A stretch of DNA of 60,671 nt from Candidatus Shapirobacteria bacterium. GTDB taxonomy: Bacteria; Patescibacteriota; Microgenomatia; VGLL01. Where the stretch lies: contig VGLL01000001.1 of the NCBI GenBank assembly GCA_016866735.1, positions 1 through 60,671 on the forward strand, in the 5' to 3' direction. Both the position numbers and the translations under genes were made by a program. Under the pieces are notes generated by a model. The model had not been told where the DNA came from. It ran no database searches and saw only the letters and a program-made list of their open reading frames with translations. Positions within the stretch are counted from its first letter, which is position 1. Every line of letters starts with the position of its first letter. Below are positions 43,061 through 56,646 of this stretch, piece by piece.

Positions 43061-45709
43061 ATGGATAAAATTATTATAAGGGGGGCAAGAGAGCATAACC
43101 TTAAAAATGTTGATCTGGAGATTCCGAAGAATAAGCTGGTGGTTTTCACCGGTGTTTCGGGCAGTGGCAAATCTTCCTTAGCCTTCGACACCATTTATGC
43201 CGAGGGCCAGCGGCGCTATGTGGAGTCGCTTTCGGCCTACGCCCGCCAATTCTTAGGTATTATGGATAAGCCTGACGTTGATTCCATCGAGGGCCTGTCG
43301 CCGGCGATTGCCATTGACCAAAAAAGCGTTTCCCATAACCCGCGGTCAACGGTGGGGACAATCACCGAGATTTATGATTACCTACGCCTTCTTTTTGCCC
43401 GCATCGGCCACCCTCACTGCCCCAATTGCGGCAAAGAAATTAGCACCATGAGTGTTGGGCAGATTAGAGAGCAGGTGCTTAAGTTTAAATTTCCCAGCCG
43501 GCTCTTGATTCTTGCGCCCCTTGTGCGCGACCGCAAAGGTGAGTTTGCCCAGCTTCTTGATAATTTACGCGTGAAGGGATTTACCCGGGTGAGAATTGAC
43601 AGGCAAATCTTTGGTCTTCACGAAGATCTTTATCTAATCAAAACTAACAAGCACACCATTGAGGCTGTGGTTGACCGAATTAGCTTTCCGAAAAAGGAAA
43701 GTGAGGCAAAAGATCCCGCCTTTGCCAGAAGACTTGGCGATTCAATCGAACAGGCCCTGAAGCTTTCCGATGGCCAGGTAATTGTGGCTGAAGTGCAAGA
43801 TTCGTCTTTCGATTTTCCCGAAAAGCCGAAAGAAATGACCGATCATCTTTTTTCGCAAAAGTTTGCTTGCCCAGCGTGTAATCTCTCTTTGCCGGAGATT
43901 GAGCCGCGCACTTTGTCATTTAATTCTCCGCATGGCGCCTGCCCTACCTGTTCGGGAATTGGCACTTTGATTAAGGTTGACGAGGAGTTGGCGGCTAAAT
44001 TTGGCCTTTCGCGCGAAGAGTTAGAGTGGCGCTATTGGCGGACGGATTCGGAGTCTGTGCGGGAAAGAATTGAGCGGTTTATGAAAAGGGAAATCTGTCC
44101 CGATTGTCAAGGAGCGAGGCTTAAAAAGGAGGCTTTGGGAATAACGATTGACGGAAAATCGATTAGCGACGCAACAAAGTGGTCAATTAAAGAAACAATT
44201 TCCTGGCTAAAGAGCTTGACCCTTGCTAATGAGAGGGAAAAGACAATCGCCGAACCGATTCTTAAGGAAGTCATTACGCGCTTAGAGTTCTTACTTTCGG
44301 TCGGCCTTGATTATCTTTCTCTTGATCGGCCCTCGGCGACTCTAGCTGGTGGTGAGAGCCAAAGGATTCGGCTGGCTTCGCAAATTGGGTCTGGACTAAG
44401 CGGCGTTTGCTATGTTTTGGATGAGCCGACTATCGGCTTACACCAAAGGGACAATCGGCGCCTGATCGAGACACTAAGAAAATTGCGTGATTTAGATAAT
44501 ACCCTGATTGTAGTGGAGCATGATCGGGAAATGATGGAGAGTGCGGATTGGCTGGTTGATTTTGGGCCAGGAGCAGGGGATGGCGGAGGAAAAATTATTA
44601 GCTTTGGTAGTCCGAAAGAGGTAAAAAGCGATCACGATTCTCTTACCGGAGCATACCTTTCCGGGAGAAAAAGAATTCAGCTAATGAATTCTACTCATCC
44701 ATTCGTCAACTCCTCTAATCATCTCGTTCTCAAAGGCTGTTCCCAGTTTAATCTCAAAAATATTGATGTCCGTTTTCCTCTAGGCAAGTTTATCGGGGTA
44801 ACGGGCGTTTCCGGCTCGGGCAAATCAACCCTGGTGGTGGAGACACTTTATCAGGCTCTAGCCGCTAAATTTAACCCTTATCATCGGGAAAAGCCGGGGC
44901 GTTTCACCGAGATTCTAGGCTTAGAACATATAGACAGGGTGATTTTGGTGGACCAGTCGCCGATTGGCCGCACCCCTCGCTCTAATCCGGCCACCTATAC
45001 CGGCACGTTTACCTTTATTCGCGATCTTTTCGCGCAACTGCCAGAGGCAAGAATCCGCGGTTATAAGCCGGGCAGGTTTTCTTTTAATGTTCGGGGAGGC
45101 CGCTGTGAAAATTGCCAGGGTGGTGGTCAAATAAAGGTCGAGATGCAATTTTTGCCAGATATCTATGTCACCTGCGAAGTTTGTCAAGGAAAGCGCTATA
45201 ACAGTCAAACTTTGGAAATCGAATTTAAGGAAAAAAATATCAGCGAGATTTTGAATTTAAGTATTGATGAAGCCGCCCATTTTTTCCAAAATTTCCCCTT
45301 AATCTTAGCCAAGCTTAATATTCTTCAGGAGGTTGGGTTGGGCTATATCAAGCTTGGACAGCCCGCGCCGACTCTGTCTGGGGGAGAGGCGCAAAGAGTG
45401 AAGCTGGCGACGGAACTGGGGAAAAAAGCGACCGGAAAAACCTTTTATATTCTTGATGAGCCGACTACTGGCCTACACTTTGCTGATTTAGAGAAGCTCT
45501 TAGTAGTTTTAAGAAAACTGGTTAGTCGGGGAAATACGGTGGTGGTGGTGGAACACAATTTGGATGTTATCAAAAATGTGGATTGGGTGATTGATCTTGG
45601 GCCAGAGGGGGGAGATGAAGGCGGATTTATCGTCGCCCAAGGCGCCCCCGCGCAAATCTCCCGCTCCCAAAACTCCTACACGGGGCAGTTTTTGAAGAAG
45701 GTTCTTTAA
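43061..45709 (+). CDS. uvrA: excinuclease ABC subunit A
   Basis: Two ABC ATPase modules ([10 protein letters not shown] ; [10 protein letters not shown]), zinc-finger CxxC pairs and LSGGE signatures. At 882 aa it is somewhat short. Confidence 0.95.
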
Positions 45710-45742
45710 TGTTCTCCCAAAATAGCGTAGAATGGAAGTAAG

Positions 45743-45907
45743 ATGGTAAAAGCAAAATCAAAGATTATGCGGCGAACCTGTGCTGTCTGCGGTAAGAAAA
45801 TTGAAGCGATTCTTTATTCTGACCGCAGTTATCGTGGCGGCCACTATTTCGGCAAAGTTCCCGATAAAAAGCTTGAATACTGGGAATGCCCGAAGTGCTA
45901 TTGGTAA
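45743..45907 (+). CDS. 54-aa CxxC...CxxC zinc-ribbon protein (below the ORF-track size cutoff)
   Basis: My own translation gives MVKAKSKIMRRTCAVCGKKIEAILYSDRSYRGGHYFGKVPDKKLEYWECPKCYW*. It lies between uvrA and mod. Confidence 0.4.
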   Translation: MVKAKSKIMRRTCAVCGKKIEAILYSDRSYRGGHYFGKVPDKKLEYWECPKCYW

Positions 45908-45994
45908 AACTAAATTCTTCTGGTGAACGAAATTAAGAGATGGTAGAATTGGTGCAGAAAGGGAAAATCCCTACAGGATCTCTAAAATCAAAAG

Positions 45995-48025
45995 ATGGGG
46001 AACATATTAGATAATTTAAAAACTTTGCTCCAAAAAGACGAACGGTTAGTGAGCGAAGGTGAGCTTTTGAAGAATAAAATAATTGAACTTGTTCTGAAGC
46101 TGGATAAAGACCTCATTAAACTCCTTTTATCTGATAAAAGAATGCGGGGGGTATTTTTTCTTGAAATTGACGGGGTGCTTATTTTTGATAAAGACAAGTT
46201 TATTAAATTTGTTTCTAGTAAGGATTTTCTGCCGGATTCTTATACTGCTTTCAAGAATAAGATTGGCTTAACTATTGGTGATGAATTTCTTAGCGAGAAA
46301 AAAGAAGTCGTACTTTCTTGGCCGTATAAGGATTGTGTCTTGGAAGGTGGGATGACTAAAGAGGACCAAAAGCGGGACGAAGTTTTTTGGAATCAAACCC
46401 TAGCGCCCGATGAAATCAGCCGCCTTTTAGATTCAAAAGTTTTTACCAATGCCAGAAGAATTGACGTTAAAGGTGAACATGAACCGGATAAATTCAAAAC
46501 TGATGAGAAAGGCGACATTAAAGACAATCTTATTATCAAGGGCAATAATCTTTTAGCTCTCTACTCCCTCAAAAAACGCTTCGCCGGAAAAGTAAAACTC
46601 ATCTACATCGACCCGCCATACAACCGTGAAGATGAGAATTTCTACAACGATAGTTTTAGGCATTCTACATGGTTGATTTTTATGAAAAATAGGATAGAAA
46701 TAGCCAGAAAATTATTGAACAATGATGGTGTCATTTTTGTGCAAATTGACTTTAGGGAATTGGCATATTTAAAAGTTTTAATGGATGAGGTTTTTGATAG
46801 AAAAAATTTTATTGGACAAATCAACTGGCAAAGAGTGCCAGAGGGGAGGACACTACTTGGTCAAGGGGAAAGTGACTTAAAGATCTCAACAGAATATCTT
46901 TTAGTTTATGCCAGAGACAAAAAGCCCGACATTTTAAATAGCAGTGTTAAGAAATTGATTGATGCCACTGAGAAGATAATTCAACAATATTCCTATGTCC
47001 TTAAGACAAATTCTAAACCAATAGAGGTAAAAAGACTTAAAGATAGTAAGGGCAGAGACGTTATTTTTTATAAAGTCCAAGATTTTGAGTTGCGACCATT
47101 GCGAGATAAAAGTATAGAAAATTATATTAGAAATTATGAAAATATGGTACAGTCTGTTGGTATACAAGAGGAAAGTACTTTCCAACAAAGACTTCTTTTT
47201 GAGACTAAAAAGATAGATACTCTGTGTATAGTGGAGTATGTTCCCGCTAAAGGAAAAAGAAAGGGGGAGAAATTGAGAGATTATTTTATTAAGGATAGGA
47301 AGTTGTTATTTGCAAAAGAATTTTCTGTTTTTAAAAATGAAAGACTATATAGAGAGGGCGATATTAATGACTTTTGGAGCAATAGTGAAATCCAAGTTAC
47401 AGATATTGCTGGAGAGGGTGCAGTGTCCCTGCGAAGAGGGAAAAAGCCCGAAGAACTATTACGTCGAGTTATAGATTGGACAACGTATAAAGATGAGATT
47501 GTTCTAGATTTCTTTATGGGCACCGGAACTACTTGCGCTGTGGCTCACAAAATGGGTCGGCAATATATTGGAGTTGAGCAGCTAGACTACGGGGAAAATG
47601 GCGCAGGGGTAAGATTAAAAAATGTCATCAACGGTGACCAAACCGGTATTTCAAAATCCGTTGGCTGGAAAGGTGGCGGGGATTTTGTTTATTTAGAACT
47701 GATGAAATGGAATGAAAATTTTGTCGGGAAAATCCAGCAAGCAAAAACGAAAGATGAATTAAAAAAGTTATGGGAGGCGATGAAAGAACGGGCGTTTTTG
47801 AGTTATAAAGTTGATGTTAAAGCGATTGATGCACAGGCTCCCGCCTCCGCTAAAGCTACGGCGGGCAAGGAAGATTTTGCGGATTTATCGCTTGAAGACC
47901 AAAAAAGATTTTTACTGGAGTGTTTAGATAAAAACCATCTCTATGTCAATTACAGCGAAATTGAGGATGAAGAGTATGGAGTGAGCGAAGAAGATAAAAG
48001 TTTAAATAGGGATTTTTATTTATGA
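45995..48025 (+). CDS. mod: type III restriction-modification system methyltransferase (Mod, N6-adenine, beta-class motif order)
   Basis: LIYIDPPYN (motif IV) precedes FFMGTGTTCAVAHKMGRQYIGVE (motif I). The N-terminus LLQKDERLVSEGELLKNKI is typical of Mod proteins. A res gene lies downstream. Confidence 0.88.
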   Translation: MGNILDNLKTLLQKDERLVSEGELLKNKIIELVLKLDKDLIKLLLSDKRMRGVFFLEIDGVLIFDKDKFIKFVSSKDFLPDSYTAFKNKIGLTIGDEFLSEKKEVVLSWPYKDCVLEGGMTKEDQKRDEVFWNQTLAPDEISRLLDSKVFTNARRIDVKGEHEPDKFKTDEKGDIKDNLIIKGNNLLALYSLKKRFAGKVKLIYIDPPYNREDENFYNDSFRHSTWLIFMKNRIEIARKLLNNDGVIFVQIDFRELAYLKVLMDEVFDRKNFIGQINWQRVPEGRTLLGQGESDLKISTEYLLVYARDKKPDILNSSVKKLIDATEKIIQQYSYVLKTNSKPIEVKRLKDSKGRDVIFYKVQDFELRPLRDKSIENYIRNYENMVQSVGIQEESTFQQRLLFETKKIDTLCIVEYVPAKGKRKGEKLRDYFIKDRKLLFAKEFSVFKNERLYREGDINDFWSNSEIQVTDIAGEGAVSLRRGKKPEELLRRVIDWTTYKDEIVLDFFMGTGTTCAVAHKMGRQYIGVEQLDYGENGAGVRLKNVINGDQTGISKSVGWKGGGDFVYLELMKWNENFVGKIQQAKTKDELKKLWEAMKERAFLSYKVDVKAIDAQAPASAKATAGKEDFADLSLEDQKRFLLECLDKNHLYVNYSEIEDEEYGVSEEDKSLNRDFYL

Positions 48026-48720
48026 ATGAAATTATAAAATCTCTACATGAGATAGTTGCCGTATTGAAAGATCCTAAAGACTTTTGGGTAAATATAACTT
48101 TAGCAATATCTACTTTTATAGCGGTAATAGTAGCTTTATTTCAGGAAAAAATAAAAAAACATTGGAATAAAGCTACATTAGATCTAAGAATAGACTTAAA
48201 TCCTCCTGATTGCCATCAAATTTCGTTAATAGACCTTCGTACGGGAAAGTTTGTGGGTCAATCTATTTACATTAGGATAAAAGTTATTCACAGAAAAGGA
48301 GGGGCCGGCGAGAATGTTGAAATTATGCCGATTAACTTTTTCCGCATTAAAGGTGATGGGAAACTGGAAAAGTTAAAACATTTTTTACCAATAAGTTTGG
48401 CCTGGAGTCATTTTCAGCCGCGTACGAATCTTAGTCGTATTCCCGTTAATTTATTTAGACATTGCGATTTTGGACACTTTGTTAAGGATCTAAAAGATAA
48501 CAATAAAGCCGTTTTAATTTTAGATACCATGGTGCAACCTAATCCGGTGGCAGAAAGCGAAGTTCCAAACATTATTAAACCAGGAAAATATCAGTTTGAA
48601 TTATTACTTAGTGGCGATAATGTTAAGCCTATTAAAAAGGAATGGAAGCTAGAATTTGATAAATGGAGCGAGGATGAAAAAGAAATGCTAACCAAAAATA
48701 TTAGCATAGAAGAAATTTGA
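48022..48720 (+). CDS. uncharacterised single-pass membrane protein, translationally coupled to mod
   Basis: The ATG overlaps the mod stop (ATGA). It has one TM segment (WVNITLAISTFIAVIVALF). No motif was recognised in the 180-aa C-terminal domain. Confidence 0.55.
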   Translation: MNEIIKSLHEIVAVLKDPKDFWVNITLAISTFIAVIVALFQEKIKKHWNKATLDLRIDLNPPDCHQISLIDLRTGKFVGQSIYIRIKVIHRKGGAGENVEIMPINFFRIKGDGKLEKLKHFLPISLAWSHFQPRTNLSRIPVNLFRHCDFGHFVKDLKDNNKAVLILDTMVQPNPVAESEVPNIIKPGKYQFELLLSGDNVKPIKKEWKLEFDKWSEDEKEMLTKNISIEEI

Positions 48721-48742
48721 TTTTTTCTTATTAATGGATGGT

Positions 48743-48768
48743 ATGCTCTACGAAACTTTTAATTCAAT
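48743..48768 (+). repeat. copy 1 of a 26-nt direct repeat identical to the first 26 nt of res (25/26 match)
   Basis: ATGCTCTACGAAACTTTTAATTCAAT is followed directly by the ATG of the next ORF. It forms the mini-ORF MLYETFNSI*, whose TGA overlaps that ATG. Confidence 0.9.
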
Positions 48769-49020
48769 ATGAAAGACAAGAAGATACAAACTCCAACTAA
48801 AATTGCCATTTTCAGAGGCAGAAGAGTGCGGAGAACTATTTATAAAGATGAATGGTGGTTTTCTGTCAGCGACATTATTGAAGCTTTAACCGGTACAGAT
48901 AGACCGAGAAAATATTGGCATGATCTTAAGAAAAAGCTCATCGACGAAAGGTATTCCGAGGTGTCCGAAAAAATCGGACAGTTGAAATTACAATTTAACT
49001 ATGCTCTACGAAACTCTTAA
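48769..49020 (+). CDS. BRO-N-like DNA-binding domain protein (possibly truncated)
   Basis: IAIFRGRRVRRTIYKDEWWFSVSDIIEALTG fits the Bro-N pattern (f.g..vR.....ge.wF.a.Dv..aLg). The last 6 codons are supplied by repeat copy 2. Confidence 0.45.
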   Translation: MKDKKIQTPTKIAIFRGRRVRRTIYKDEWWFSVSDIIEALTGTDRPRKYWHDLKKKLIDERYSEVSEKIGQLKLQFNYALRNS

Positions 49021-49026
49021 CTAAAT
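49001..49026 (+). repeat. copy 2 of the 26-nt res-5' repeat (23/26 match to copy 1)
   Basis: ATGCTCTACGAAACTCTTAACTAAAT is followed directly by the ATG of the KTSC ORF. It forms the mini-ORF MLYETLN*. Confidence 0.9.
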
Positions 49027-49239
49027 ATGCACAGAATTCCCGTAACTTCATCGAATATTCGCTCAATTGGCTACGATCCGGAATCGCAAATTTTGAAGGT
49101 GGAGTTCAATTCAGGAGAAGTTTATCAATATTTCGATGTTCCCGAGCATCTTTATCAAGAGCTTATGAAAGCCTCATCGCCTGGACGTTTTTTGAATGAT
49201 TATATTAAATATAGTTATCGTTACCAAAAAATTACTTAG
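49027..49239 (+). CDS. KTSC domain protein
   Basis: VTSSNIRSIGYDPESQILKVEFNSGEVYQYFDVPEHLYQELMKASSPGRFLNDYIK is the KTSC signature (s.i..igYd.....L.v.F..G..Y.Y..VP...y..l..a.S.G.yfn..Ik). Confidence 0.75.
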   Translation: MHRIPVTSSNIRSIGYDPESQILKVEFNSGEVYQYFDVPEHLYQELMKASSPGRFLNDYIKYSYRYQKIT

Positions 49240-49242
49240 TGT

Positions 49243-50028
49243 ATGTTTAGTCCCAAAACTGAAAAAATAAAAAAGATCACCGAAAGAAACCAAGAGGCAG
49301 TCGAACGATTAGAAAAGCTTCTTGGAAACTCTACGAGAGTTTATATTGATTACGCCAATGTGCGACCGTGGAGCACAAAACTGCACTGGCACATTGACCT
49401 TAGGCGGCTAAAACAGTTTTTGGATTCTTTTGACACAGTGGGAGCGGTAAGTTTTTACGGTGGCTATATCAAGGGTGACGAACGATCGGAGAGAGAAATA
49501 AAGCAGGTTGAAGATCTGGCATATATTGTGCGGACTAAGCCAGTGAAATTTTTGCGATTTTCCATCAACGCTTCTAGCATTTCGGCAGATTCTACTGCCT
49601 TACTAAAACCATTTATCCGGCGAGCCCTGTTACGAAAGTATGAGGTCTCCACTATCGAATATCTCAACGAACGTTTTGCTGATATGAACAAGAAGGGAGA
49701 ATATTACATTGAAGACAGAAAATGCAATTTTGATGTTGAGATTAGTACCGATATGCTTCTTGATTCTGAACGCAAAAATGGGGAGATTTTTGTTTTATGG
49801 AGTGGCGATAGCGATTTTGCGGAGCCTGTAAAGAAGTTATTGGAGGCAGGCAGAAAGGTGGTATTATGCGCAACGGCGGGGAAAATTTCCAGCGAGCTTA
49901 ATACTCTAAGAGTAAAAGGACTAGAAGTATTTGATATCTTTCACATTAAGGACTTAATTTGCTGGAACAGGGAAATAAATAAAAGGTTAGATAAAAGCAC
50001 AAAGGACTCCGTTTCCGGAGCCCCTTAG
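49243..50028 (+). CDS. NYN-domain (LabA/DUF88-like PIN-fold) putative RNase
   Basis: VYIDYANV at the N-terminus, CNFDVEISTDML and VLWSGDSDFAEPVKKLLEAGRKVVL match the NYN acidic motifs. It starts 3 nt after the KTSC stop. Confidence 0.65.
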   Translation: MFSPKTEKIKKITERNQEAVERLEKLLGNSTRVYIDYANVRPWSTKLHWHIDLRRLKQFLDSFDTVGAVSFYGGYIKGDERSEREIKQVEDLAYIVRTKPVKFLRFSINASSISADSTALLKPFIRRALLRKYEVSTIEYLNERFADMNKKGEYYIEDRKCNFDVEISTDMLLDSERKNGEIFVLWSGDSDFAEPVKKLLEAGRKVVLCATAGKISSELNTLRVKGLEVFDIFHIKDLICWNREINKRLDKSTKDSVSGAP

Positions 50029-50098
50029 CACTAGAGTTAGTGATCTTTCGATCAAGGCAAAGTATAGCGCAAAGAAGACAAAAGTCAAGGATCAATTT

Positions 50099-50124
50099 AT
50101 GCTCTACGAAATTTTTAATTCAAT
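50099..50124 (+). repeat. copy 3 (the resident copy) of the 26-nt repeat, equal to codons 1-9 of res
   Basis: ATGCTCTACGAAATTTTTAATTCAAT was read directly. Confidence 0.9.
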
Positions 50125-52705
50125 TAAGGATTCATTTGGAGCGGATTATTTTACCTCGCGAGTTAGTAATGAAATAGTCCAAAATCTCAATCCAAAGTTT
50201 GAACTGCGAGAATATCAAAAAGAAGCGCTAGGAAGATTCGATTTTTATTTTAATGGCTACCAAAAAAGAAAATTTCCAGCGCAATTACTTTTCCATATGG
50301 CCACCGGTAGTGGCAAGACGCTGATTATGGCCGCCAATATTTTGTCTCTCTACAAACTTGGCTACCGCAACTTCATCTTTTTTGTCAATAGTGTAAATAT
50401 TATTGAAAAAACGCGAGATAATTTTTTAAATCCCCTATCGGAAAAATATCTTTTCTCTCCTACCATTAGGTTTGGCGAAAAACAAATTGAGATTAGAGAA
50501 GGCAAAAATTTTGCGGCCGCAAGCCCCGAAGATATAAATATTCTTTTTACCACAATTCAGGGATTGCATGTTCGCTTGAATTACCCTAAGGAAGATGCTC
50601 TAACCTACGAAGATTTTGCCGACAAAGAAATTATTTTAATTTCTGATGAAGCCCACCACTTGCAGACAATAACAAAAGGCAATAGGGAAGAAATCGAATT
50701 AGAAAAAAGCTGGGAGCATACAGTTGAACGTGTCTTTAGAAGTAATTTTAAAAATATTTTATTGGAGTTTACGGCCACAATTGATTTGGGTAATGAAAAT
50801 ATAAGGCAGAAATACGAAGACAAAATTATCTTTCAATACGACTTAAAGCAGTTCAGGTTAGATAAATACTCAAAAGAAATAGAAGTTTTGCAGGCAGACT
50901 TAGAACCGGTTGACCGGGCCTTACAGGCGGTTATTTTAAGCCAGTATCGCCGCAAGATAGCTGAAAAATACAAGTTGCGCTTAAAGCCGGTACTACTTTT
51001 CAAGTCCAAAAGCATTAAAGAATCAAAAGAAAATTATGATGATTTTTTGGAAAAGATGAAAAACTTGAAGTCAAGCGACTTGCAGGAAATATGTTCCCGA
51101 TCCCAAGGAACAGATATAGAAAAGGCATTTAATTATCTTAAAAAAGAAGACATAACTTTTGACAATTTTATTAAAGAATTACAAGAGGATTTTGCTGAAG
51201 AAAAATGTATGCTTTTGGATTCAGAACATGTAGATGAAGAAAAACAATTAAAACTCAATTCCCTGGAGAACAAAAACAACGAGATAAGGGCAATATTTGC
51301 GGTTAATATGTTAAATGAAGGGTGGGATGTGCTAAATCTTTTTGATATCGTCCGGCTCTATGACACACGCGACGGCAAATACGTTCATGGTAAATATAAG
51401 CCGGGCAACACGACAATGGGAGAAGCCCAACTTATTGGTAGAGGAGCAAGATATTTTCCATTCCAATTAGATGAAGTTCAGGATAAATATAAAAGAAAAT
51501 TTGATGAGGATGCCGAGAATGAATTGCGAGCAGTAGAAACATTATATTATCACAGCGCCCATAACCCCGATTATATTAGTGAGATAAAAAGTGCCCTGAC
51601 GGAAATAGGAATTTTGCCAGAAAAGTATTCTCAATTAGAAATGAAAATTAAAGATGATTTCAAGAAAACGGATTTTTGGAAAGACGGAGTGATTTTTATA
51701 AATGATAGAATAGCGAACCCAAGAACAGAAATTTTTAGTTTAGAAGACGCAAAAGTTGAGCGAAGCTACGCGCATAAATTAAAAACAGGAGAGATAAGAG
51801 AAAAGGTTATTCTAGACGAAGATGAAGAGATTAAGCCAAGAGACGTTGTGCGTAGTAAAATGAAATATAAACTTTCTGATTTCGGAGAAAATATAGTTAG
51901 AAGTGCTTTAGACAAGCTTGAGTTCTATCGATTTGAGACACTAAGAGAATATTTTCCCCACATAAGGTCGGTGAAAGAGTTTATTGCCTCTAATAATTAT
52001 TTAGGTGGAATTGAGATAGAGGTTTCTGGGCCAAAAGATAAACTGAATAAACTACTACCGATTGAGAAATTGGAAATGGCTTTATTTGTAGTTAGAAATG
52101 TAGCGGAAAAGGCAAGGATTAATACCTCGGATTTTGTAGGAACTAATCTATTTAAGGCGAGGTTGTTGCGGCAAGTTTTCAAAGATAAAAAAATCAAAAT
52201 AGACATCGATGAAGTGAAGAACCAAAAATTAGAGAATGTTAATTTGGTCGAGAAAGATTGGTATGCTCAAAATGAATTTTATGGCACGGATGAGGAGCAA
52301 AATTTCATCAACTTCCTCGATGGATTTATAGAGAAATTGAGACAAAAATATTCAGATATGGCCTTACTTCGCAATGAAAAATTTTTTCAAGTTTTTGACT
52401 TTAGTGAAGGTAGAGCGTTTGAGCCGGATTTTTTGATGTTATTAAAGAGAAGAAACCACAAAATTAGTATTTACCAGATTTTTATTGAGCCGAAGGGAGA
52501 TCTATTTAAAGATGGCCAAGGCAGATTTGAAAATTCAAAAGAGGGATGGAAGCAAAAATTTTTGCTTGAGGCGGAAAAACGAGTAAAGATTGACCTAAAA
52601 CTTGAAAGCAAAAACTTTAAACTCATCGGGTTGCCTTTTTACAATGAAAAACTGAAAAGAGAATTTGAAGAAGCTCTTGAAAATAAAATTTTATCTGATC
52701 TGTGA
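50099..52705 (+). CDS. res: type III restriction enzyme Res subunit (SF2 helicase plus C-terminal PD-(D/E)xK nuclease)
   Basis: HMATGSGKT (motif I), LISDEAHH (DEAH), TATI, NMLNEGWDV and a C-terminal FEPDFLML...IFIEPKG nuclease motif. Confidence 0.88.
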   Translation: MLYEIFNSIKDSFGADYFTSRVSNEIVQNLNPKFELREYQKEALGRFDFYFNGYQKRKFPAQLLFHMATGSGKTLIMAANILSLYKLGYRNFIFFVNSVNIIEKTRDNFLNPLSEKYLFSPTIRFGEKQIEIREGKNFAAASPEDINILFTTIQGLHVRLNYPKEDALTYEDFADKEIILISDEAHHLQTITKGNREEIELEKSWEHTVERVFRSNFKNILLEFTATIDLGNENIRQKYEDKIIFQYDLKQFRLDKYSKEIEVLQADLEPVDRALQAVILSQYRRKIAEKYKLRLKPVLLFKSKSIKESKENYDDFLEKMKNLKSSDLQEICSRSQGTDIEKAFNYLKKEDITFDNFIKELQEDFAEEKCMLLDSEHVDEEKQLKLNSLENKNNEIRAIFAVNMLNEGWDVLNLFDIVRLYDTRDGKYVHGKYKPGNTTMGEAQLIGRGARYFPFQLDEVQDKYKRKFDEDAENELRAVETLYYHSAHNPDYISEIKSALTEIGILPEKYSQLEMKIKDDFKKTDFWKDGVIFINDRIANPRTEIFSLEDAKVERSYAHKLKTGEIREKVILDEDEEIKPRDVVRSKMKYKLSDFGENIVRSALDKLEFYRFETLREYFPHIRSVKEFIASNNYLGGIEIEVSGPKDKLNKLLPIEKLEMALFVVRNVAEKARINTSDFVGTNLFKARLLRQVFKDKKIKIDIDEVKNQKLENVNLVEKDWYAQNEFYGTDEEQNFINFLDGFIEKLRQKYSDMALLRNEKFFQVFDFSEGRAFEPDFLMLLKRRNHKISIYQIFIEPKGDLFKDGQGRFENSKEGWKQKFLLEAEKRVKIDLKLESKNFKLIGLPFYNEKLKREFEEALENKILSDL

Positions 52706-52851
52706 TTACGCGCCAAAAGGTTTAAGTAATATAAAGTTTTACGAATAAAAATGATTAATAGCAAAAGTGATTTTGAGAAATCATATAAAAAGAGAGCGAA
52801 AATAGCCCTAGGCCTAAAGGTTTAAGTATAAAGTTAAAAAAATAGAATCGA

Positions 52852-53049
52852 ATGGAACGCACTTATTGTCCATGGTGTGTCGGGAAGGAGGAATCCCTAA
52901 AGCGTCAGGGAGCTGGTGAATCAGGCGGGATTTGTGAACGCCACCTTAGAGAGCTTTTGGGGGAGGAAAGATACGATCAATATCGCAAACAACATGCCGA
53001 AGGCCAGGCTTTACCAACAGGGGACGAAAGGAAAGAAAATCAGCCTTAA
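52852..53049 (+). CDS. 65-aa Cys/His-containing hypothetical protein (coding status uncertain)
   Basis: CPWC...CERH may bind metal. The ORF is visibly more GC-rich than the flanking A+T-rich DNA and is bracketed by imperfect direct repeats. Confidence 0.3.
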   Translation: MERTYCPWCVGKEESLKRQGAGESGGICERHLRELLGEERYDQYRKQHAEGQALPTGDERKENQP

Positions 53050-53103
53050 GCAGATTTAGAACCCTAGGCCCTAAGGATTTAAATGCCACTGTATACAAAT
53101 TAG

Positions 53104-53119
53104 TATACTGATCAGTATA
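53104..53119. promoter_or_regulatory. 16-bp perfect palindrome upstream of the transglutaminase-like gene
   Basis: TATACTGATCAGTATA is preceded by a related CTGTATAC element (53089-53096). Confidence 0.4.
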
Positions 53120-53195
53120 TGGATTTTAATGAGCGAGGGAGAATTGCCAGCCGAACTTTGCTAAATTTACTCCCCTTTTGCTAAACTGATGGTTA

Positions 53196-55052
53196 GTGAT
53201 TAGGCGAATTTTTTCCTCTTTAGTCTATTTGCTATTAGCGGTTATCTTCGGTTGTGTTTTAGCCCTTACTGGCCCACAATTTAATTTGGCCTATGCCGCC
53301 GGGGAGTTTGCCACGACTTATGATATTACCTATGAGGTAAATGAGCAGGGAAAGGCGGTGGTGGTTTCGGATATTTCGCTCATTAATAAGCTTTCCAATA
53401 TTTATGCCACCCAATACCAACTAACTTTGGAAAGGGGAGATATCAGCGGCATTTTAGCCTGGGACAATAAGGGGGCGATTAAGACCGAGGTGGAGAAACA
53501 GGACGAGGCAACGCTGATCCGCTTAAAATTTAACGACCAGATCGTCGGCGTTGGCAAAAACTTACGCTTTACCCTAAAATACGAAATTTCCGATTTTGCC
53601 AAAAAGAACGGTCAAATATGGGAGATCGCGGTTCCGAGAATTTTGGACTTAAAAGAAAGCGAGGTCGCGACGGTGGCCGTCAAGGTTCCTCTCTCTTTTG
53701 GCTCGCCCGCCTTTATTAGTCCTTTGCCAAATTCTACCTCGGAAACAAAATTCTTTCAGATATTAAATTTTAGTAAGGAGAGAATTGGCGATAAGCCGAT
53801 AATTATTGCCCTGGGGGAGTTTCAAATTTTCGACTTTAGCCTAACCTATCATCTCTCCAACTCCAAAGCTGCCCCCGTTTTTACTAAAATTGCCTTTCCC
53901 CCGGATACCAATTACCAGAAGATTGCTTATAACGGCATTCAGCCAAAACCAGAAAATATTGAAGTTGATGGCGACGGCAACTGGCTGGGCACCTATACGC
54001 TTTCTCCCCTGGAAAAAAAGATAGTTAGAGCCACCGGTAAGGTTAAAATTTGGGCTAATCCAAACACCGAGAGAGGAGCAAAACAAGATTTGAAAAAATA
54101 TTTGACACCCCAAAGTTATTGGGAGGTTGAAGATCCGGAGATTAAGAAACTGGCGGCATCGCTAAAGACACCGGAGGCGATATATAACTATGTGGTCGAC
54201 AATCTAAATTATGACTTTAGTAAGGTTGGTTTAAGCAACGAACGGTTGGGCGCGCAGGCCGTTCTAAAAAAGAAGAACAACGCCATTTGCCTGGAATTTA
54301 CTGATCTTTTCATTGCTCTGGCGCGGGCAGCGGGGATTCCCGCTCGGGAGCTAAACGGTTTTGCCTACACGGAAAACCCGAAGCTTAAGCCCTTAAGCGC
54401 CGCCACCGATATTTTGCATTCCTGGCCGGAGTTTTATGACACGAATAAAAGGCTTTGGGTACAGATTGATCCGACCTGGGGCAAGACTTCGGGTGTTGAT
54501 TTCTTTCACAAGCTTGATCTTTCTCACTTTGTTTTTGCCATTCATGGCGCTGATAGCCGTTATCCTCCCGCCGCCGGGTCTTACCGGGAAGAGAATGCCG
54601 TTGGTAAGGATATTAAGGTTAGTTTCGGAGAATATAAAGAGGAGAAAATTCCCGAAATCAATGTTATTTTTAATTTGCCTAAGGCTATATTCCCAGGACA
54701 AAATGTTTCCGGGAGTATCTTAGTAACAAATTTAGGCCCTGGAGCCCTCTATAACGTACCAATCAGCATCGAAAGCCGAAGCCTTTCACTTAGCTCACCT
54801 GTCGAGATGACGATTGAAAGCCTGGTTCCATTTGCCCAGAAGGAAATTCCGGTAAGTTTTAACAGGAGGATTTCCCTCAAGGCGGAAACAGCGAAAGTGG
54901 ATGTTTTGGTAAACGGGGAAAATTTTAGCTATAATTTACAGATTGAGCCAATCCTGTTTCAGTTGCTGCTAATATTATTAATCAGTGCGTCCCTTATTGT
55001 CATTATCGTCTTATCCGCAAAAGCCAGGCGTTTATCTCTTCCGCAACAGTAA
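53196..55052 (+). CDS. membrane-anchored transglutaminase-like (Cys-His-Asp) domain protein
   Basis: It has N- and C-terminal TM segments. The core is AICLEFTDLFIALARAAGIPARELNGFAY ... HSWPEFY ... WVQIDPTW (C, H, D). It has a GTG start. Confidence 0.75.
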   Translation: MIRRIFSSLVYLLLAVIFGCVLALTGPQFNLAYAAGEFATTYDITYEVNEQGKAVVVSDISLINKLSNIYATQYQLTLERGDISGILAWDNKGAIKTEVEKQDEATLIRLKFNDQIVGVGKNLRFTLKYEISDFAKKNGQIWEIAVPRILDLKESEVATVAVKVPLSFGSPAFISPLPNSTSETKFFQILNFSKERIGDKPIIIALGEFQIFDFSLTYHLSNSKAAPVFTKIAFPPDTNYQKIAYNGIQPKPENIEVDGDGNWLGTYTLSPLEKKIVRATGKVKIWANPNTERGAKQDLKKYLTPQSYWEVEDPEIKKLAASLKTPEAIYNYVVDNLNYDFSKVGLSNERLGAQAVLKKKNNAICLEFTDLFIALARAAGIPARELNGFAYTENPKLKPLSAATDILHSWPEFYDTNKRLWVQIDPTWGKTSGVDFFHKLDLSHFVFAIHGADSRYPPAAGSYREENAVGKDIKVSFGEYKEEKIPEINVIFNLPKAIFPGQNVSGSILVTNLGPGALYNVPISIESRSLSLSSPVEMTIESLVPFAQKEIPVSFNRRISLKAETAKVDVLVNGENFSYNLQIEPILFQLLLILLISASLIVIIVLSAKARRLSLPQQ

Positions 55053-56241
55053 CGGTAAGGTAATTTACGTCGGCAAGGCAATCAATCTTAGAAATAGAGT
55101 CAGCTCCTATTTTTCCGGCCTTGATCTTGGCCCGAAAACGCGCCTGCTTGTTTCCCAGATTGCTAAAATCGAGACTCGTCTGGTTGAGTCGGAGCTCGAG
55201 GCGCTTTTGCTGGAGGCCGCCCTAATTAAAAAGTATCAACCGAAATACAATATTAAGGCTAAAGACGATAAGAGCCCGCTATACATAAAGGTTACTCGAG
55301 AAAAAGTTCCCTTGGTGACTACCGCCCGCCAAATTGGAGACGGCTCTATTTTTGGCCCATTTCCGCAAGCCCGGACGGTCAAAATGGTTTTAAAGACTTT
55401 GCGCAGTATTTTTCCCTACCGGACCAGCAGGCACCACCAAAAAGGCAAATGCTTGTATTGCCACCTTGGCCTTTGCCCGGGGCCGCTTTTGTCTAATAAG
55501 GAAAAAAAGGAATACGGCCGCTCCGTCCGTCTGCTGCGCCAATTCCTAGGGGGACAAAAAAAGAGCGTCTTGCGGGCGCTTGAAAAAGAGATGAAGGCTG
55601 GCGCGAAGGCAGAGGATTTTGAAAAAGCAGCCCAAATTCGTGATCAAATATTGGCTATTAAAATTGTGACCAGCCCGCGGCGAAAAGTAAGCGACTATCT
55701 CAAAAATCCCAACTTAGTAGAAGATCAAAGGCGGCAAGAACTTAGAGAGTTAGAAAGCATTCTGGGGGTAGCCGTTAATACGATTGAGGGTTATGACGTT
55801 TCCAACCTTGTCGGTAAGCAAGCTACGGGAGCAATGGTCACTTTTTCTGCCGGCGAACCGGTAAAAAGCCTATATCGACGGTTTCGCATAAAATTTTCCG
55901 CGCGACCTAACGACTTAGTTATGATCAGCGAAGTTTTGAAAAGAAGATTGGCCCATTCCGGGTGGCCACTTCCTGATTTAATTTTAGTTGACGGAGGAAA
56001 AGCCCAGGTTAAAATCGGCTTAGCGGTTTTAAAAGAACATAATTTTCAAATTCCCGCGATTGGCTTAGCGAAGAGAATGGAGGAAGTCGTTATTTTTAGA
56101 GAAAAGGAAAAGGCATGGGTGGTGAGGCGCTTACCCCAAGATTCACCTGCCCGGAAACTTTTAGAACGCGTCCGTGATGAAGCGCACCGTTTTGCCCGAA
56201 CCTACCATTTGCTTTTAAGGAAAAAAATGAGTATGCTTTAG
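54985..56241 (+). CDS. uvrC: excinuclease ABC subunit C, short form lacking the C-terminal (HhH)2 domain
   Basis: GIY-YIG (KPGVYLFRNSNGKVIYVGKAINLRNRVSSYF), a Cys motif (CLYCHLGLCPGP), a UVR domain (EDFEKAAQIRDQILAI) and an endonuclease domain (IEGYDVSN, LVDGGKAQ, GLAKR, VRDEAHRFA). It ends 13 aa after the last motif. It overlaps the upstream gene by 68 nt if the GTG at 54985 is used. Confidence 0.85.
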   Translation: MRPLLSLSSYPQKPGVYLFRNSNGKVIYVGKAINLRNRVSSYFSGLDLGPKTRLLVSQIAKIETRLVESELEALLLEAALIKKYQPKYNIKAKDDKSPLYIKVTREKVPLVTTARQIGDGSIFGPFPQARTVKMVLKTLRSIFPYRTSRHHQKGKCLYCHLGLCPGPLLSNKEKKEYGRSVRLLRQFLGGQKKSVLRALEKEMKAGAKAEDFEKAAQIRDQILAIKIVTSPRRKVSDYLKNPNLVEDQRRQELRELESILGVAVNTIEGYDVSNLVGKQATGAMVTFSAGEPVKSLYRRFRIKFSARPNDLVMISEVLKRRLAHSGWPLPDLILVDGGKAQVKIGLAVLKEHNFQIPAIGLAKRMEEVVIFREKEKAWVVRRLPQDSPARKLLERVRDEAHRFARTYHLLLRKKMSML

Positions 56242-56244: not shown

Positions 56245-56646
56245 GTGAAATCAATAATCCGCTCACTCGCGATTAATTTTTTTACCATTTGGTTTTTTAG
56301 CCAAGTATACCCCGGGGTTAAAATTGAGGGCGGTTACCTAACTATTTTCTGGGCGGCCGTTGCCTTTGGCCTGCTTAACCTCATCGTCAGACCAGTCTTG
56401 AGCCTGCTGCTTTTGCCCATTAACCTTCTTACCTTAGGCGCATTCCGTTTCGTCATCGGGGTAATTATTCTTTTTCTTCTCGCCGTTATTGTACCCGGCT
56501 TTTCCCTGCAATCCTTTTCCTTCGGCGGGTTTTCCAATAGCGGCATTGTTCTTCCCGCCGCCCATATCTCTCTCCTCTGGTCTTATGTCATCGGATCGTT
56601 TATAATTAGCATCATCAACTCTTTTATCGTATGGCTTTTACAATAA
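56245..56646 (+). CDS. YvlD/DUF360 (phage holin family 4-like) membrane protein
   Basis: Four TM segments, with GLLNLIVRPVLSLLLLPINLLTLGAFRFVIGVIILFL, the typical LPi..lTLGlF signature. Confidence 0.65.
   Translation: MKSIIRSLAINFFTIWFFSQVYPGVKIEGGYLTIFWAAVAFGLLNLIVRPVLSLLLLPINLLTLGAFRFVIGVIILFLLAVIVPGFSLQSFSFGGFSNSGIVLPAAHISLLWSYVIGSFIISIINSFIVWLLQ

What the first reader, a model, noticed from the sequence alone, without database searches (positions are those of the whole stretch)
45743..53195. Type III R-M operon with four unrelated genes wedged between mod and res, forming an A+T-rich island between uvrA and uvrC
Seen in sequence:
- mod (DPPY then FxGxG) ends at 48025.
- res (ATGSGKT, DEAH, C-terminal PD..ExK) starts only at 50099.
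- The 2.07-kb gap holds four same-strand ORFs with minimal spacing. They are a TM protein overlapping the mod stop, a BRO-N-like protein, a KTSC protein and a NYN-domain protein.

Established knowledge: canonical type III systems have adjacent or overlapping mod and res genes, because Res acts only in complex with Mod.

Inference: one possibility is that accessory anti-phage or regulatory modules have been captured into the R-M operon. Another is that this is a composite defence system in which a membrane protein and a NYN RNase cooperate with the R-M enzyme.

The island also interrupts an otherwise housekeeping uvrB-uvrA...uvrC neighbourhood. By eye (not quantified) it is much more A+T-rich than its flanks.
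Basis: partly seen in the sequence, partly recalled or inferred. Interest (0 to 1): 0.8.

Follow-up and report, generated by a model that had tools for sequence, protein, structure and literature searches.

The report
Defence-gene cargo slot inside Type III restriction operon
The gap between the two genes of this restriction-modification system is a swappable cargo bay that, across about ninety related loci from many phyla, carries different anti-phage genes, and here it holds three stacked cargo units separated by short duplicated copies of the start of the restriction gene.

Summary

It is not a fixed composite system. Res homologues (71-81% aa identity) occur in 115 fetched loci from many phyla. 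Of 88 with both mod end and res start, 82 carry cargo (0.56-4.4 kb) and 5-6 have mod and res 2-3 nt apart. Cargo is 56 protein clusters in 44 arrangements, including AbiJ, AbiE, Shedu, minimal CBASS, PD-Lambda-5, OLD, AAA_13, RhuM/Fic and Schlafen-like genes.

New point: cargo units are bounded by 24-59 nt copies of the res 5' end ("stubs"). The window has two (48743-48768, 49001-49026), giving three units:
- a 232-aa membrane protein of an uncharacterised family, mostly found in or beside R-M systems;
- a truncated Bro-N fragment;
- a KTSC-NYN pair with a conserved antisense small-RNA element. This pair is also embedded in an unrelated Type III system.

Identity breakpoints between loci fall at the stubs, so homologous recombination on conserved mod-3'/res-5' flanks probably drives cargo exchange.

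This extends published "embedding" (Hma, BREX, DISARM, Type I R-M) to Type III and adds the scar-delimited array. Function and mechanism are inferred.

The parts
45983..52705 (+). Horizontally acquired Type III R-M module (mod, cargo slot, res); low-GC island
   Evidence: DNA homology to 115 family loci starts at 45983 and ends at 52693, with no conserved flanks. GC is 35.7% against 44.1% for the window.
45995..48025 (+). mod, Type III beta-class N6-adenine methyltransferase (676 aa)
   Evidence: Pfam N6_N4_Mtase plus TypeIII_RM_meth; PADLOC MTase_III 1e-190; DPPY precedes FxGxG.
46800..47450 (+). Variable target-recognition region of mod (approximate limits)
   Evidence: No nucleotide homology to family loci across this stretch. 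There are 31 TRD clusters among 52 complete Mods, and they shuffle independently of cargo.
48022..48720 (+). Cargo unit 1: 232-aa membrane protein of an uncharacterised, R-M-associated family
   Evidence: - The ATG overlaps the mod stop codon.
- No Pfam, NCBIfam or PADLOC hit.
- 120 homologues found.
- AF2 model with MSA has pLDDT 93.5: N-terminal helices plus a beta-sandwich. Foldseek gives only weak arrestin, Kir-CTD or Spo0M-like matches.
- Found in the same slot in L111.
- Embedded between hsdS and hsdR in Type I systems, and found beside other R-M systems.
48743..48768 (+). Stub 1: copy of the res 5' end (25 of 26 nt identical to res 50099-50124); mini-ORF MLYETFNSI* whose stop overlaps the ATG of the next ORF
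48769..49020 (+). Cargo unit 2: truncated Bro-N / PDC-S13-like gene fragment (83 aa), probably a pseudogene remnant
   Evidence: - PADLOC PDC-S13 1e-18, matching only positions 4-71 of 286; PHROG 15286, positions 6-71 of 274.
- 2295 representative hits all match only residues ~7-76.
- The longer homologues (180 aa or more) that I read continue ...IGQLKL-xxDGK...FRIIQSIPSPKAEPFKxWL, where this ORF instead reads into stub 2.
49001..49026 (+). Stub 2: degenerate copy of the res 5' end (3 mismatches to stub 1, 4 to the resident res start); mini-ORF MLYETLN* ending 2 nt before the KTSC ATG
49027..49239 (+). Cargo unit 3, gene 1: KTSC-domain protein (70 aa)
   Evidence: Pfam KTSC 1.6e-27. A KTSC gene is called immediately upstream of the NYN gene in L036, L037-L039, L040-L043, L136/L137 and L141. 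It is not called in L138-L140, where tblastn still finds the KTSC-coding sequence.
49243..50028 (+). Cargo unit 3, gene 2: NYN/LabA-like predicted RNase (261 aa)
   Evidence: Pfam NYN 1.5e-13; PADLOC NYN 4e-10 and HEC-09 4e-5; 1612 homologues.
49990..50088 (-). Conserved 3' element of the KTSC-NYN module, read as a convergent antisense small RNA. It comprises a promoter-like TTGACT-16 nt-TATACT (50088-50061), two hairpins and a T-run (hairpin 50027-50000), and overlaps the last ~35 nt of the NYN gene.
   Evidence: - Best promoter-like hit and a minus-strand terminator-like hit in the region.
- Conserved in 6 KTSC-NYN loci in different contexts.
- RNAalifold predicts 16 pairs, 5 of them with compensatory changes.
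- No Rfam family matches.
50099..52705 (+). res, Type III restriction subunit (868 aa; SF2 helicase plus C-terminal PD-(D/E)xK)
   Evidence: Pfam ResIII; PADLOC REase_III 4e-133; 71-81% aa identity to homologues from many phyla.

Best explanation
The locus belongs to a widely transferred Type III R-M family whose mod-res junction works as a cargo slot for independent accessory defence or toxin modules.

Shown:
- The scaffold (mod 5' and 3' parts, and res) is conserved at about 75% nucleotide identity across phyla.
- Two segments vary independently: the Mod target-recognition region and the mod-res slot.
- The slot is empty in a few loci (mod stop, 2-3 nt, res ATG). Elsewhere it holds 1-4 same-strand, tightly spaced genes from at least 56 families.
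- Stacked cargo units are separated by 24-59 nt copies of the res 5' end, sometimes followed by a fragment of the mod 3' end.
- Identity breakpoints between loci fall at these scars.
- The window carries three stacked units: the 232-aa membrane protein | stub | a truncated Bro-N remnant | stub | KTSC-NYN with its antisense-RNA element | res.

Inferred:
- Cargo is gained, stacked and replaced by homologous recombination, occasionally illegitimate. Incoming DNA from other family members recombines on the conserved mod-3' and res-5' sequences as homology arms. No dedicated recombinase is needed.
- Cargo is co-transcribed with mod and res and translationally coupled to them. Stops and starts overlap or lie 2-10 nt apart, and the stub mini-ORFs bridge the junctions.
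- Cargo genes act as self-contained second-line defences of the abortive-infection or toxin type. They travel with the R-M scaffold and are stabilised by it, and are not subunits of the restriction enzyme.
- For the window's cargo, the most likely roles are a membrane-acting effector or sensor (the 232-aa protein) and an RNase toxin held in check by a cis-antisense RNA (NYN, with KTSC as partner).
For: - Family census. 35 genome loci plus 80 metagenome loci were fetched. Of 88 with both mod end and res start, 82 are occupied by 561-4389 nt of cargo; 5 are empty and one is ambiguous.
- Cargo diversity. There are 127 cargo ORFs, 98% of the gap is + strand coding, and they fall into 56 clusters and 44 arrangements with combinatorial stacking.
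- Cargo identity: RhuM/Fic (PDC-S23), Fic, AAA_14, Schlafen AlbA_2, AIPR, AbiEi/AbiEii, Shedu SduA_C, DUF3800, Abi_C/AbiJ, OLD (AAA_15 plus TOPRIM), AAA_13, SMODS plus a 1TM CBASS effector, and PD-Lambda-5_A plus a D12 MTase.
- Stubs in the window. Three copies of the res 5' 26-mer, against 0 expected by chance.
- Stubs in the family. 22 of the 80 loci first scored as occupied have stubs, and these lie at the unit boundaries. Density is 25 per 136 kb of slot sequence against 11 per 2.0 Mb elsewhere.
- Direct demonstration of insertion. In L024 and L052 the order is mod, then a stub placed as in an empty site, then cargo, then res.
- Breakpoints. L024 and L131 share stub-C09-res at 93.7% over 4254 nt, while their mod segments share 85-86%. 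L077 and L119 share mod3'-C02-stub at 89%, while res shares 76%.
- mod-3' fragments follow the stubs in L077, L118 and L064/L069.
- TRD and cargo shuffle independently.
- Coupling. The median distance from the last cargo stop to the res ATG is 3 nt, and 63 of 80 loci are at 10 nt or less. No + strand terminator-like site lies inside the operon.
- Autonomy of the window's cargo. KTSC-NYN occurs after a PemK gene, after an MmeI-type R-M, after a Schlafen-type helicase, and between mod and res of an unrelated Type III family. The 232-aa family occurs in Type I, II and III R-M contexts and in an integrative element.
- Literature. [quoted passage not shown] PrrC lies within EcoprrI (PMC12707154).
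Against: - No experiment supports defence activity of any window cargo gene. The one NYN candidate tested by Payne et al. (HEC-09), a weak match here at 4e-5, gave no protection against their phages.
- The 232-aa protein has no informative fold match, so its effector role is a guess.
- The recombination mechanism is inferred from scars and mosaicism, not observed.
- Elevated synonymous conservation of the res 5' end (rank 15 of 927 windows) could reflect translation-initiation constraints instead of recombination.
- Many loci come from MAGs and metagenomes, and some are near-duplicates (for example L098/L099/L109 and L119-L122). Raw locus counts therefore overstate independent events; 44 arrangements is the safer number.
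- Transcription as one unit is untested, and sigma-70 scans may not apply to this CPR organism.
Confidence: 0.8

Rival explanations
1. Fixed composite defence system: the membrane protein, KTSC and the NYN RNase are functional subunits or obligate partners of this Type III enzyme.
For: - The genes are on the same strand, with overlapping or abutting stops and starts.
- KTSC-NYN is also embedded between mod and res of an unrelated Type III family.
- The 232-aa family lies in or beside R-M systems in 7 of 9 contexts.
Against: - 5-6 family members lack any cargo.
- The other 81 occupied loci carry other genes. Only L111 shares the 232-aa gene and none shares KTSC-NYN.
- Both modules also occur without any Type III system.
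- One of the four ORFs is a truncated remnant.
Confidence: 0.06
2. Integron-like cassette array: the stubs are attachment sites recognised by a dedicated site-specific recombinase, encoded elsewhere, that inserts and excises circular cassettes.
For: - Direct repeats lie at every examined boundary between stacked units.
- The same cargo unit occurs alone or stacked in different orders.
- Left junctions are cargo-specific. For example, C09 has a 39-nt stub in both L024 and L131.
Against: - Stub length varies from 24 to 59 nt, and the stub is simply res coding sequence.
- No recombinase was found among the ORFs scanned in 45.7-56.2 kb of the window.
- Some stubs are followed by mod-3' fragments, which is what fusion of two whole loci would leave.
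- Long blocks including all of res are co-inherited with the adjacent cargo, as expected for ordinary homologous recombination.
- The stub has no obvious palindrome or hairpin by eye. This was not tested by folding.
Confidence: 0.1
3. Selfish hitch-hikers: the cargo is mostly toxin-antitoxin-like or otherwise selfish genes. They persist in the slot because deletions there risk breaking an addictive R-M pair, not because they protect against phage.
For: - Many cargo families are toxin-like: Fic/RhuM, AbiE, NYN, OLD.
- A truncated remnant is retained in the window.
- KTSC-NYN has a type-I-TA-like antisense RNA arrangement.
Against: - Several cargo families are experimentally established defences: Shedu, CBASS, AbiJ, AbiE, PD-Lambda-5. 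The family assignments come; their defence status rests on established knowledge.
- Payne et al. validated 7 of 9 embedded candidates.
- This rival is not exclusive of the best explanation.
Confidence: 0.15
4. Assembly or binning artefact: the inserted genes are chimeric joins in a metagenome-assembled contig.
For: The window is a MAG contig (source names).
Against: - The exact NYN and 232-aa proteins are recorded on 8 contigs each.
- The same architecture with stubs recurs in dozens of independent assemblies.
- Reading frames are tightly coupled across the junctions.
Confidence: 0.01

Closest known systems
Defence genes 'embedded' in multi-gene immune systems (Hma, BREX, DISARM, Type I R-M; Payne et al., bioRxiv 10.1101/2024.01.29.577857)
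   Same: Accessory genes sit between the core genes of a methylation-based defence system, on the same strand. They vary between homologous systems and are enriched for known and candidate defence genes. Two cargo families here match that study's PADLOC models: PDC-S13 for the window's fragment, and PDC-S23/S05 for RhuM-like cargo. NYN weakly matches HEC-09.
   Different: - The host is a Type III R-M system, which does not appear among the host systems in the passages of that paper retrieved by my term search (I did not read the whole paper).
- There is a single precise insertion point at the mod|res junction.
- Occupancy is very high (82 of 88).
- Units are delimited by duplicated res-5' and mod-3' scars, which point to a mechanism. 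The word 'recombination' does not occur in that paper's text.
PrrC anticodon nuclease embedded in the Type Ic R-M locus EcoprrI
   Same: An independent RNA-targeting effector is encoded inside an R-M operon. AAA_13 (the Pfam family I recall, from my own knowledge, as including the PrrC/RloC-type ATPases) occurs as slot cargo in 5 family loci (C08, C37).
   Different: The window's RNase is an NYN-domain protein with a KTSC partner, not an ABC-ATPase anticodon nuclease. Physical masking by the R-M enzyme and triggering by an anti-restriction peptide are untested here.
Canonical Type III R-M operons (EcoP15I, EcoP1I; also the plasmid relatives seen here in S. salivarius)
   Same: Gene order is mod then res. 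Mod is a beta-class m6A methyltransferase with a central variable recognition domain. Res is an SF2 helicase plus a PD-(D/E)xK nuclease. The empty-slot members have the classical 2-3 nt mod-res junction.
   Different: Most members of this family have the junction split open by 0.56-4.4 kb of unrelated genes.
Integron cassette arrays
   Same: A promoter-proximal, same-strand array of promoterless, interchangeable gene units is separated by short repeated boundary sequences.
   Different: There is no integrase, attI or attC hairpin. The boundaries are fragments of the flanking coding genes, and exchange is best explained by general homologous recombination.
Type I toxin-antitoxin loci with 3'-overlapping antisense RNA (e.g. 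txpA/RatA, bsrG/SR4; from established knowledge)
   Same: A convergent small RNA with its own promoter and terminator overlaps the 3' end of a putative toxin gene (NYN).
   Different: The putative toxin is a 261-aa RNase, not a small hydrophobic peptide. The RNA is predicted only.

Membership tests
Type III restriction-modification system | Mod: beta-class N6-adenine MTase (motif IV DPPY before motif I FxGxG) with the Type III-specific N-terminal domain | tested here: met
   Pfam N6_N4_Mtase 2.7e-40 and TypeIII_RM_meth 7.5e-23; PADLOC MTase_III 1e-190; motif order read from the sequence.
Type III restriction-modification system | Res: SF2 helicase motifs plus a C-terminal PD-(D/E)xK nuclease, encoded downstream of mod on the same strand | tested here: met
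   Pfam ResIII 1.4e-28; PADLOC REase_III 4e-133 over residues 30-864; MATGSGKT, SDEAHH and EPD...IEPKG seen in the sequence.
Type III restriction-modification system | mod and res adjacent or overlapping | tested here: not met
   There is a 2073-nt gap in the window. The feature is met only in the 5-6 empty-slot relatives. It is typical of the family but not required for the enzymology.
Type III restriction-modification system | ATP-dependent cleavage requiring two inversely oriented unmethylated sites; a Mod2Res1/2 complex | not testable with these tools
   Biochemistry is required.
Embedded defence cargo (guilt-by-embedding sense) | Genes lie between core genes of a known multi-gene defence system, in the same orientation | tested here: met
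   In the family, 98% of slot sequence is + strand coding.
Embedded defence cargo (guilt-by-embedding sense) | Content varies between homologous host systems and includes known defence systems | tested here: met
   56 clusters and 44 arrangements. AbiE, Shedu, AbiJ, CBASS, PD-Lambda-5, OLD and AIPR are among them.
Embedded defence cargo (guilt-by-embedding sense) | Cargo confers phage resistance on its own | not testable with these tools
   Phage challenge assays are needed.
Integron | IntI tyrosine recombinase, attI, and attC hairpin sites bounding the cassettes | tested here: not met
   No recombinase domain was found in the ORFs scanned at 45743-56241. The boundary repeats are res coding sequence of variable length.
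NYN/LabA-like nuclease | PIN-like NYN domain with conserved acidic residues | tested here: inconclusive
   Pfam NYN 1.5e-13 passes its cut-off but covers only residues 152-219. YIDYAN and SGDSDF acidic motifs are visible in the sequence. No solved-structure relative was found by sequence, and no structure model was made.
KTSC domain family | Full-length match to PF13619 | tested here: met
   1.6e-27, positions 1-58 of 58.
Bro-N / PDC-S13 | Complete Bro-N domain plus C-terminal region (about 250-290 aa) | tested here: not met
   Only the first ~70 positions are matched. The homologue consensus continues where this ORF enters stub 2.
Type I toxin-antitoxin (antisense RNA) | Small antisense RNA overlapping the toxin mRNA; the toxin is a small membrane peptide | tested here: inconclusive
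   A promoter-like site, two hairpins and a T-run are conserved in 6 loci, with 5 compensatory pairs. The toxin type does not fit, and expression is untested.

The most novel reading that the evidence does not exclude
A cross-phylum Type III R-M scaffold acts as an integrase-free, scar-delimited cassette array. Conserved mod-3' and res-5' sequences serve as portable homology arms that let defence genes be stacked and swapped between distantly related bacteria, including CPR lineages. The stubs give a simple sequence rule for cutting out complete, previously unknown defence units. One such unit is the 232-aa R-M-associated membrane protein, which may sense failure of restriction. Another is KTSC-NYN with its antisense RNA.
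Probability: 0.35. Interest if true: 0.8.

Novelty: new variant of a known kind. Interest (0 to 1): 0.62.

Why it matters
If correct, it matters in four ways.
1. Embedding extends to Type III R-M systems. Here it has a defined insertion point and over 90% occupancy in one widespread family.
2. It supplies physical evidence, in the form of stubs and identity breakpoints, for how embedded cargo is exchanged. The embedding literature I read does not address this.
3. The stubs delimit cargo units. About half of the 56 cargo clusters had no Pfam or PADLOC match among those tested, so the family is a ready-made catalogue of candidate defence genes from uncultivated lineages.
4. It flags two specific candidates. 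One is an R-M-associated membrane protein family seen with R-M types I, II and III. The other is a KTSC-NYN-antisense-RNA module embedded in two unrelated Type III families.

Tried and rejected
- Single-sequence AF2 of the 232-aa protein gave pLDDT 35 and was unusable. Rerunning with a 56-sequence alignment gave 93.5.
- Foldseek of that model against PDB gave nothing at E<=1e-3. There were only weak arrestin, Kir-CTD or Spo0M-like beta-sandwich matches with TM 0.2-0.45, so no function can be assigned.
- phmmer of NYN against PDB sequences gave no hit.
- Viral-contig scans for Res, the 232-aa family and NYN confirmed no relatives. The method is limited by its search patterns.
- The Rfam scan of 45.5-53.4 kb gave only a sub-threshold lncRNA match, taken as chance.
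- The search for island-bounding repeats or att-like duplications around 45650-46000 and 52690-53260 found nothing convincing.
- I tested whether the res 5' end is uniquely conserved at synonymous sites. It is elevated (0.80 against a mean of 0.60; rank 15 of 927) but not unique, so it is not strong evidence for a dedicated site.
- The first census counted 8 empty loci. Re-inspection showed that L064 and L069 are occupied (cargo, stub, mod-3' fragment) and L072 is ambiguous.
- A simple target-site duplication was considered and rejected. Stubs often differ from the resident res start (5 mismatches in L058), their length varies, and some carry mod-3' fragments.
- Literature searches found no description of cargo between mod and res of Type III systems. 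One malformed query failed.

Full report
**1. Observation**

- mod runs 45995-48025 and res runs 50099-52705, both on the + strand.
- mod carries Pfam N6_N4_Mtase and TypeIII_RM_meth, and matches PADLOC MTase_III at 1e-190.
- res carries Pfam ResIII and matches PADLOC REase_III at 4e-133 across nearly its full length.
DPPY precedes FxGxG in Mod. MATGSGKT, DEAH and a C-terminal PD...ExK are in Res.

The 2073-nt gap holds four + strand ORFs.
- A 232-aa protein whose ATG overlaps the mod TGA. It has one hydrophobic N-terminal helix and no hit in Pfam, NCBIfam or PADLOC.
- An 83-aa Bro-N-like ORF.
- A 70-aa KTSC protein.
- A 261-aa NYN protein.

The island is measurably A+T-rich. It is 35.7% GC against 44.1% for the window, and no other 6.7-kb window falls below 40.3%.

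There is one factual slip. The ORF at 53196 is a transglutaminase-like membrane protein. The UvrC-like gene starts near 54985.

**2.

A repeat search found three direct copies of about 26-30 nt.
- One is the true res start, ATGCTCTACGAAATTTTTAATTCAAT at 50099.
- The others lie at 48743 and 49001. Relative to the 48743 copy, the res start has 1 mismatch and the 49001 copy has 3.
- None is expected by chance: 0 of 100 shuffles.
- The identity is confined to ATG plus about 25 nt, together with one or two bases upstream.

Each extra copy ('stub') opens a mini-ORF. These are MLYETFNSI* and MLYETLN*. Their stops overlap or abut the ATG of the next gene.

The stubs cut the gap into three units:
- the 232-aa gene;
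- the 83-aa ORF;
- KTSC plus NYN.

**3. The family**

Res has homologues of 71-81% amino-acid identity, plus a few more distant ones.
- 35 loci came from genome bins. By record title these are assigned to Patescibacteria/CPR groups, Ignavibacteria, Omnitrophota, Nitrospirota, Scalindua, Gammaproteobacteria, Thermotogota and others.
- 80 loci came from metagenomes. More than 214 relatives exist there.

Nucleotide homology between the window and these loci is confined to three blocks: 45983-46800, 47450-48020 and 50099-52693.
- The scaffold is therefore mod 5', mod 3' and res.
- There are two variable regions, the Mod target-recognition domain and the mod-res slot.
- Nothing is conserved outside the module.

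Of 88 loci that contain both the mod end and the res start:
- 82 have cargo of 561-4389 nt.
- Five have a full-length mod whose stop lies 2-3 nt from the res ATG.
- One is ambiguous.

The cargo amounts to 127 ORFs, almost all on the + strand. It falls into 56 protein clusters and 44 arrangements.

Units recur alone and stacked in different combinations. Examples are C02, C02+C00 and C02+C22, or C16, C09 and C16+C09.

The distance from the last cargo stop to the res ATG has a median of 3 nt.

**4. What the cargo is**

Pfam and PADLOC scans of representatives gave:
- RhuM/Fic (PDC-S23/S05) and Fic;
- an AAA_14 ATPase;
- Schlafen AlbA_2, twice;
- AIPR;
- a class-II GATase;
- an AAA_15/21 ATPase, and an OLD-family ATPase with TOPRIM;
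- AAA_13 ATPases, the Pfam family I recall (my own knowledge) as including PrrC/RloC;
- AbiEi plus AbiEii;
- Shedu SduA_C;
- DUF3800;
- AbiJ;
- PD-Lambda-5_A with a D12 methyltransferase;
- a SMODS cyclase with a 1TM CBASS effector.

About half of the clusters tested had no match. The slot is therefore a hotspot for known and candidate anti-phage or abortive-infection genes.

**5. Stubs are recombination scars at unit boundaries**

Occurrence:
- 22 of the 80 loci first scored as occupied carry one or two internal stubs of 24-59 nt.
- In every stacked locus they lie between units, 2-10 nt after the stop of the upstream cargo gene.
- Stub density is 25 per 136 kb of slot sequence, against 11 per 2.0 Mb elsewhere. 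Most of the 'elsewhere' hits lie upstream of res in loci where mod was simply not on the contig.

Structure of individual loci:
- In L024 and L052 a stub follows mod exactly as res does in an empty locus. Cargo comes next, then the real res. There the cargo sits inside the first 9-14 codons of res, with the res start regenerated downstream.
- Stubs often differ from the resident res start, with 5 mismatches in L058. They are therefore not fresh target-site duplications.
- In L077, L118 and L064/L069 a 70-290 nt fragment of the mod 3' end follows the stub. Fusion of two complete loci followed by deletion would leave this. L017 and L064 still have tandem mod genes.

Pairwise comparisons show identity breakpoints at the stubs.
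- L024 and L131 share stub-C09-res at 93.7% over 4254 nt, but their mod segments share only 85-86%.
- L077 and L119 share mod3'-C02-stub at 89%, but res shares only 76%.

Mod recognition domains (31 clusters among 52 complete Mods) and cargo types assort independently.

My reading is that general homologous recombination does the work. It acts on the conserved mod-3' and res-5' sequences, with occasional illegitimate deletions, and it moves, stacks and replaces cargo. This is inference from the scars.

Synonymous-site identity in res codons 1-9 is raised (0.80 against a mean of 0.60; rank 15 of 927). It is not unique.

**6. The window's three units**

*(a) The 232-aa protein.*
- It has 120 homologues of 43-75% identity and none carries a Pfam domain.
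- Predicted with an alignment, it folds confidently (pLDDT 93.5) into N-terminal helices plus a beta-sandwich.
- Foldseek finds only weak arrestin, Kir-CTD or Spo0M-like matches.
- Conserved polar motifs (PPDCHQI, RHCDFG, DT..QPNP) hint at a binding or catalytic site.

Its genomic contexts are striking.
- It sits in the same slot in L111.
- It lies between hsdS and hsdR of two different Type I systems, with overlapping stops and starts.
- It lies just upstream of a third Type I system.
- It lies just downstream of a HinfI-type Type II system.
- It lies about 0.4 kb downstream of another Mtase+ResIII pair.
- It is also found in an integrative element beside Abi_alpha, and near T4SS genes.

In total, 7 of 9 independent contexts are in or beside R-M systems.

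*(b) The 83-aa ORF.*
- It matches only the first ~70 positions of PDC-S13 (286 positions) and of PHROG 15286 (274 positions).
- All 2295 representative hits align only to its residues ~7-76.
- The longer homologues continue ...IGQLKL-xxDGK...FRIIQSIPSPKAEPFKxWL. This ORF leaves the consensus after IGQLKLQ and reads into stub 2.
- It is therefore a remnant truncated in mid-domain.

*(c) KTSC and NYN.*
- They form a conserved pair (1612 NYN homologues). A KTSC gene is called directly upstream in most loci examined. In L138-L140 it is not called, but tblastn finds the coding sequence.
- The pair is found after a PemK gene, after an SNF2+MmeI-type R-M, and after a RadC/MazG/Schlafen-helicase cluster.
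- It is also found between mod (755 aa) and res (890 aa) of a Type III family only 24-26% identical to this one (L136).

**7. A conserved non-coding element in the KTSC-NYN unit**

The unusual 70-nt spacer before res is part of the KTSC-NYN unit. Nucleotide homology to other KTSC-NYN loci runs through it.

On the minus strand it reads as follows.
- A promoter-like TTGACT-16 nt-TATACT at 50088-50061. This is the best promoter-like hit in the region.
- Hairpin GATCGAAAGATC.
- A second hairpin and a T-run at 50027-50000.

It is conserved in six loci in different contexts, and 5 of 16 predicted pairs show compensatory changes among five sequences. Rfam has nothing matching.

I read it as a cis-antisense small RNA overlapping the NYN 3' end. 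This would fit NYN being a regulated toxin or effector. Expression is untested and the sample is small.

**8. Comparison with what is known**

- Payne et al. [quoted passage not shown] Embedded genes share the host system's orientation in 96.7% of cases, and 7 of 9 tested candidates were active.
- Their NYN candidate HEC-09 was inactive against their phages.
- PrrC within EcoprrI is the classical case (PMC12707154).
- My searches found no description of cargo between mod and res of Type III systems, and none of boundary scars.
- More distant plasmid relatives are mixed. Chryseobacterium pA2BH1 (49% Res identity) has a 145-aa gene between mod and res. A Streptococcus salivarius plasmid has the classical adjacent pair.

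The finding is therefore a new variant of a known kind. The concept is the same. The host system, the precision and occupancy of the slot, and the scar-delimited array are new.

**9. Verdict**

- The 'obligate composite system' reading is not supported.
- A guard-type functional link between the cargo and R-M remains open, especially for the 232-aa family.

Main caveats:
- Everything functional is inferred.
- Many loci are MAG or metagenome contigs, and some are near-duplicates.
- The recombination mechanism rests on comparative scars, not on observed events.

Noticed in passing
window 49990-50098 (minus strand); also L036, L037, L040, L136, L138 downstream of NYN: A conserved promoter-like site, two hairpins and a T-run lie antisense to the 3' end of the NYN gene. 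Among five sequences, 5 of 16 predicted pairs show compensatory changes. No Rfam family matches. It looks like a cis-antisense small RNA belonging to the KTSC-NYN module.
   Followed up: partly
L136 561-6558 (and L137): KTSC-NYN with the same 3' element lies between mod (755 aa) and res (890 aa) of a Type III family only 24-26% identical to the window's. This is an independent embedding event.
   Followed up: partly
window 39149-39895 (-): A DUF3800 protein is encoded just upstream of uvrB. The same Pfam family appears as slot cargo in L027.
   Followed up: no
L017 540-4354; L064 132-4493: Two complete mod genes sit in tandem upstream of the cargo and a single res. This suggests fusion of two family loci, or a spare specificity gene.
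   Followed up: no
L095 5963-5992; L094 4626: A perfect res-5' stub lies about 140 nt downstream of the res stop codon and is followed by unrelated sequence. It may be a scar of a former tandem locus.
   Followed up: no
L097 1829-2840; L108 4446-5466: About 1 kb after a stub has no + strand ORF of 60 aa or more. This is probably decayed cargo.
   Followed up: no
window 45743-45907 and 52852-53049: Two small CxxC-containing ORFs (54 and 65 aa) flank the R-M module. They lie outside the block conserved in the family and match no family model. It is unclear whether they are genes or belong to the island.
   Followed up: partly
window 53196-56241: The transglutaminase-like ORF (53196-55052) overlaps by 68 nt the predicted GTG start of a short (418 aa) UvrC-like ORF, so the true uvrC start is probably later. 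A Phage_holin_4_2 family protein and SecG follow at 56245-56861.
   Followed up: no
232-aa protein, window 48022-48720 (alignment A2): Invariant or near-invariant polar residues cluster in the motifs PPDCHQI (61-67), SH (129-130), RHCDFG (146-151) and DT..QPNP (168-175). They could form a metal-binding or catalytic site.
   Followed up: no
L142 (Chryseobacterium plasmid pA2BH1) 2635-7541: A cultured-organism plasmid has a 145-aa hypothetical gene between mod and res, with Res 49% identical to the window's. It could serve as an experimentally tractable relative.
   Followed up: no
L041/L042 3210-3911: A 233-aa protein with no Pfam hit lies directly upstream of KTSC-NYN, and its start overlaps the end of a Schlafen-type helicase gene. 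It is the same size as the window's 232-aa protein, but tblastn detects no similarity.
   Followed up: partly
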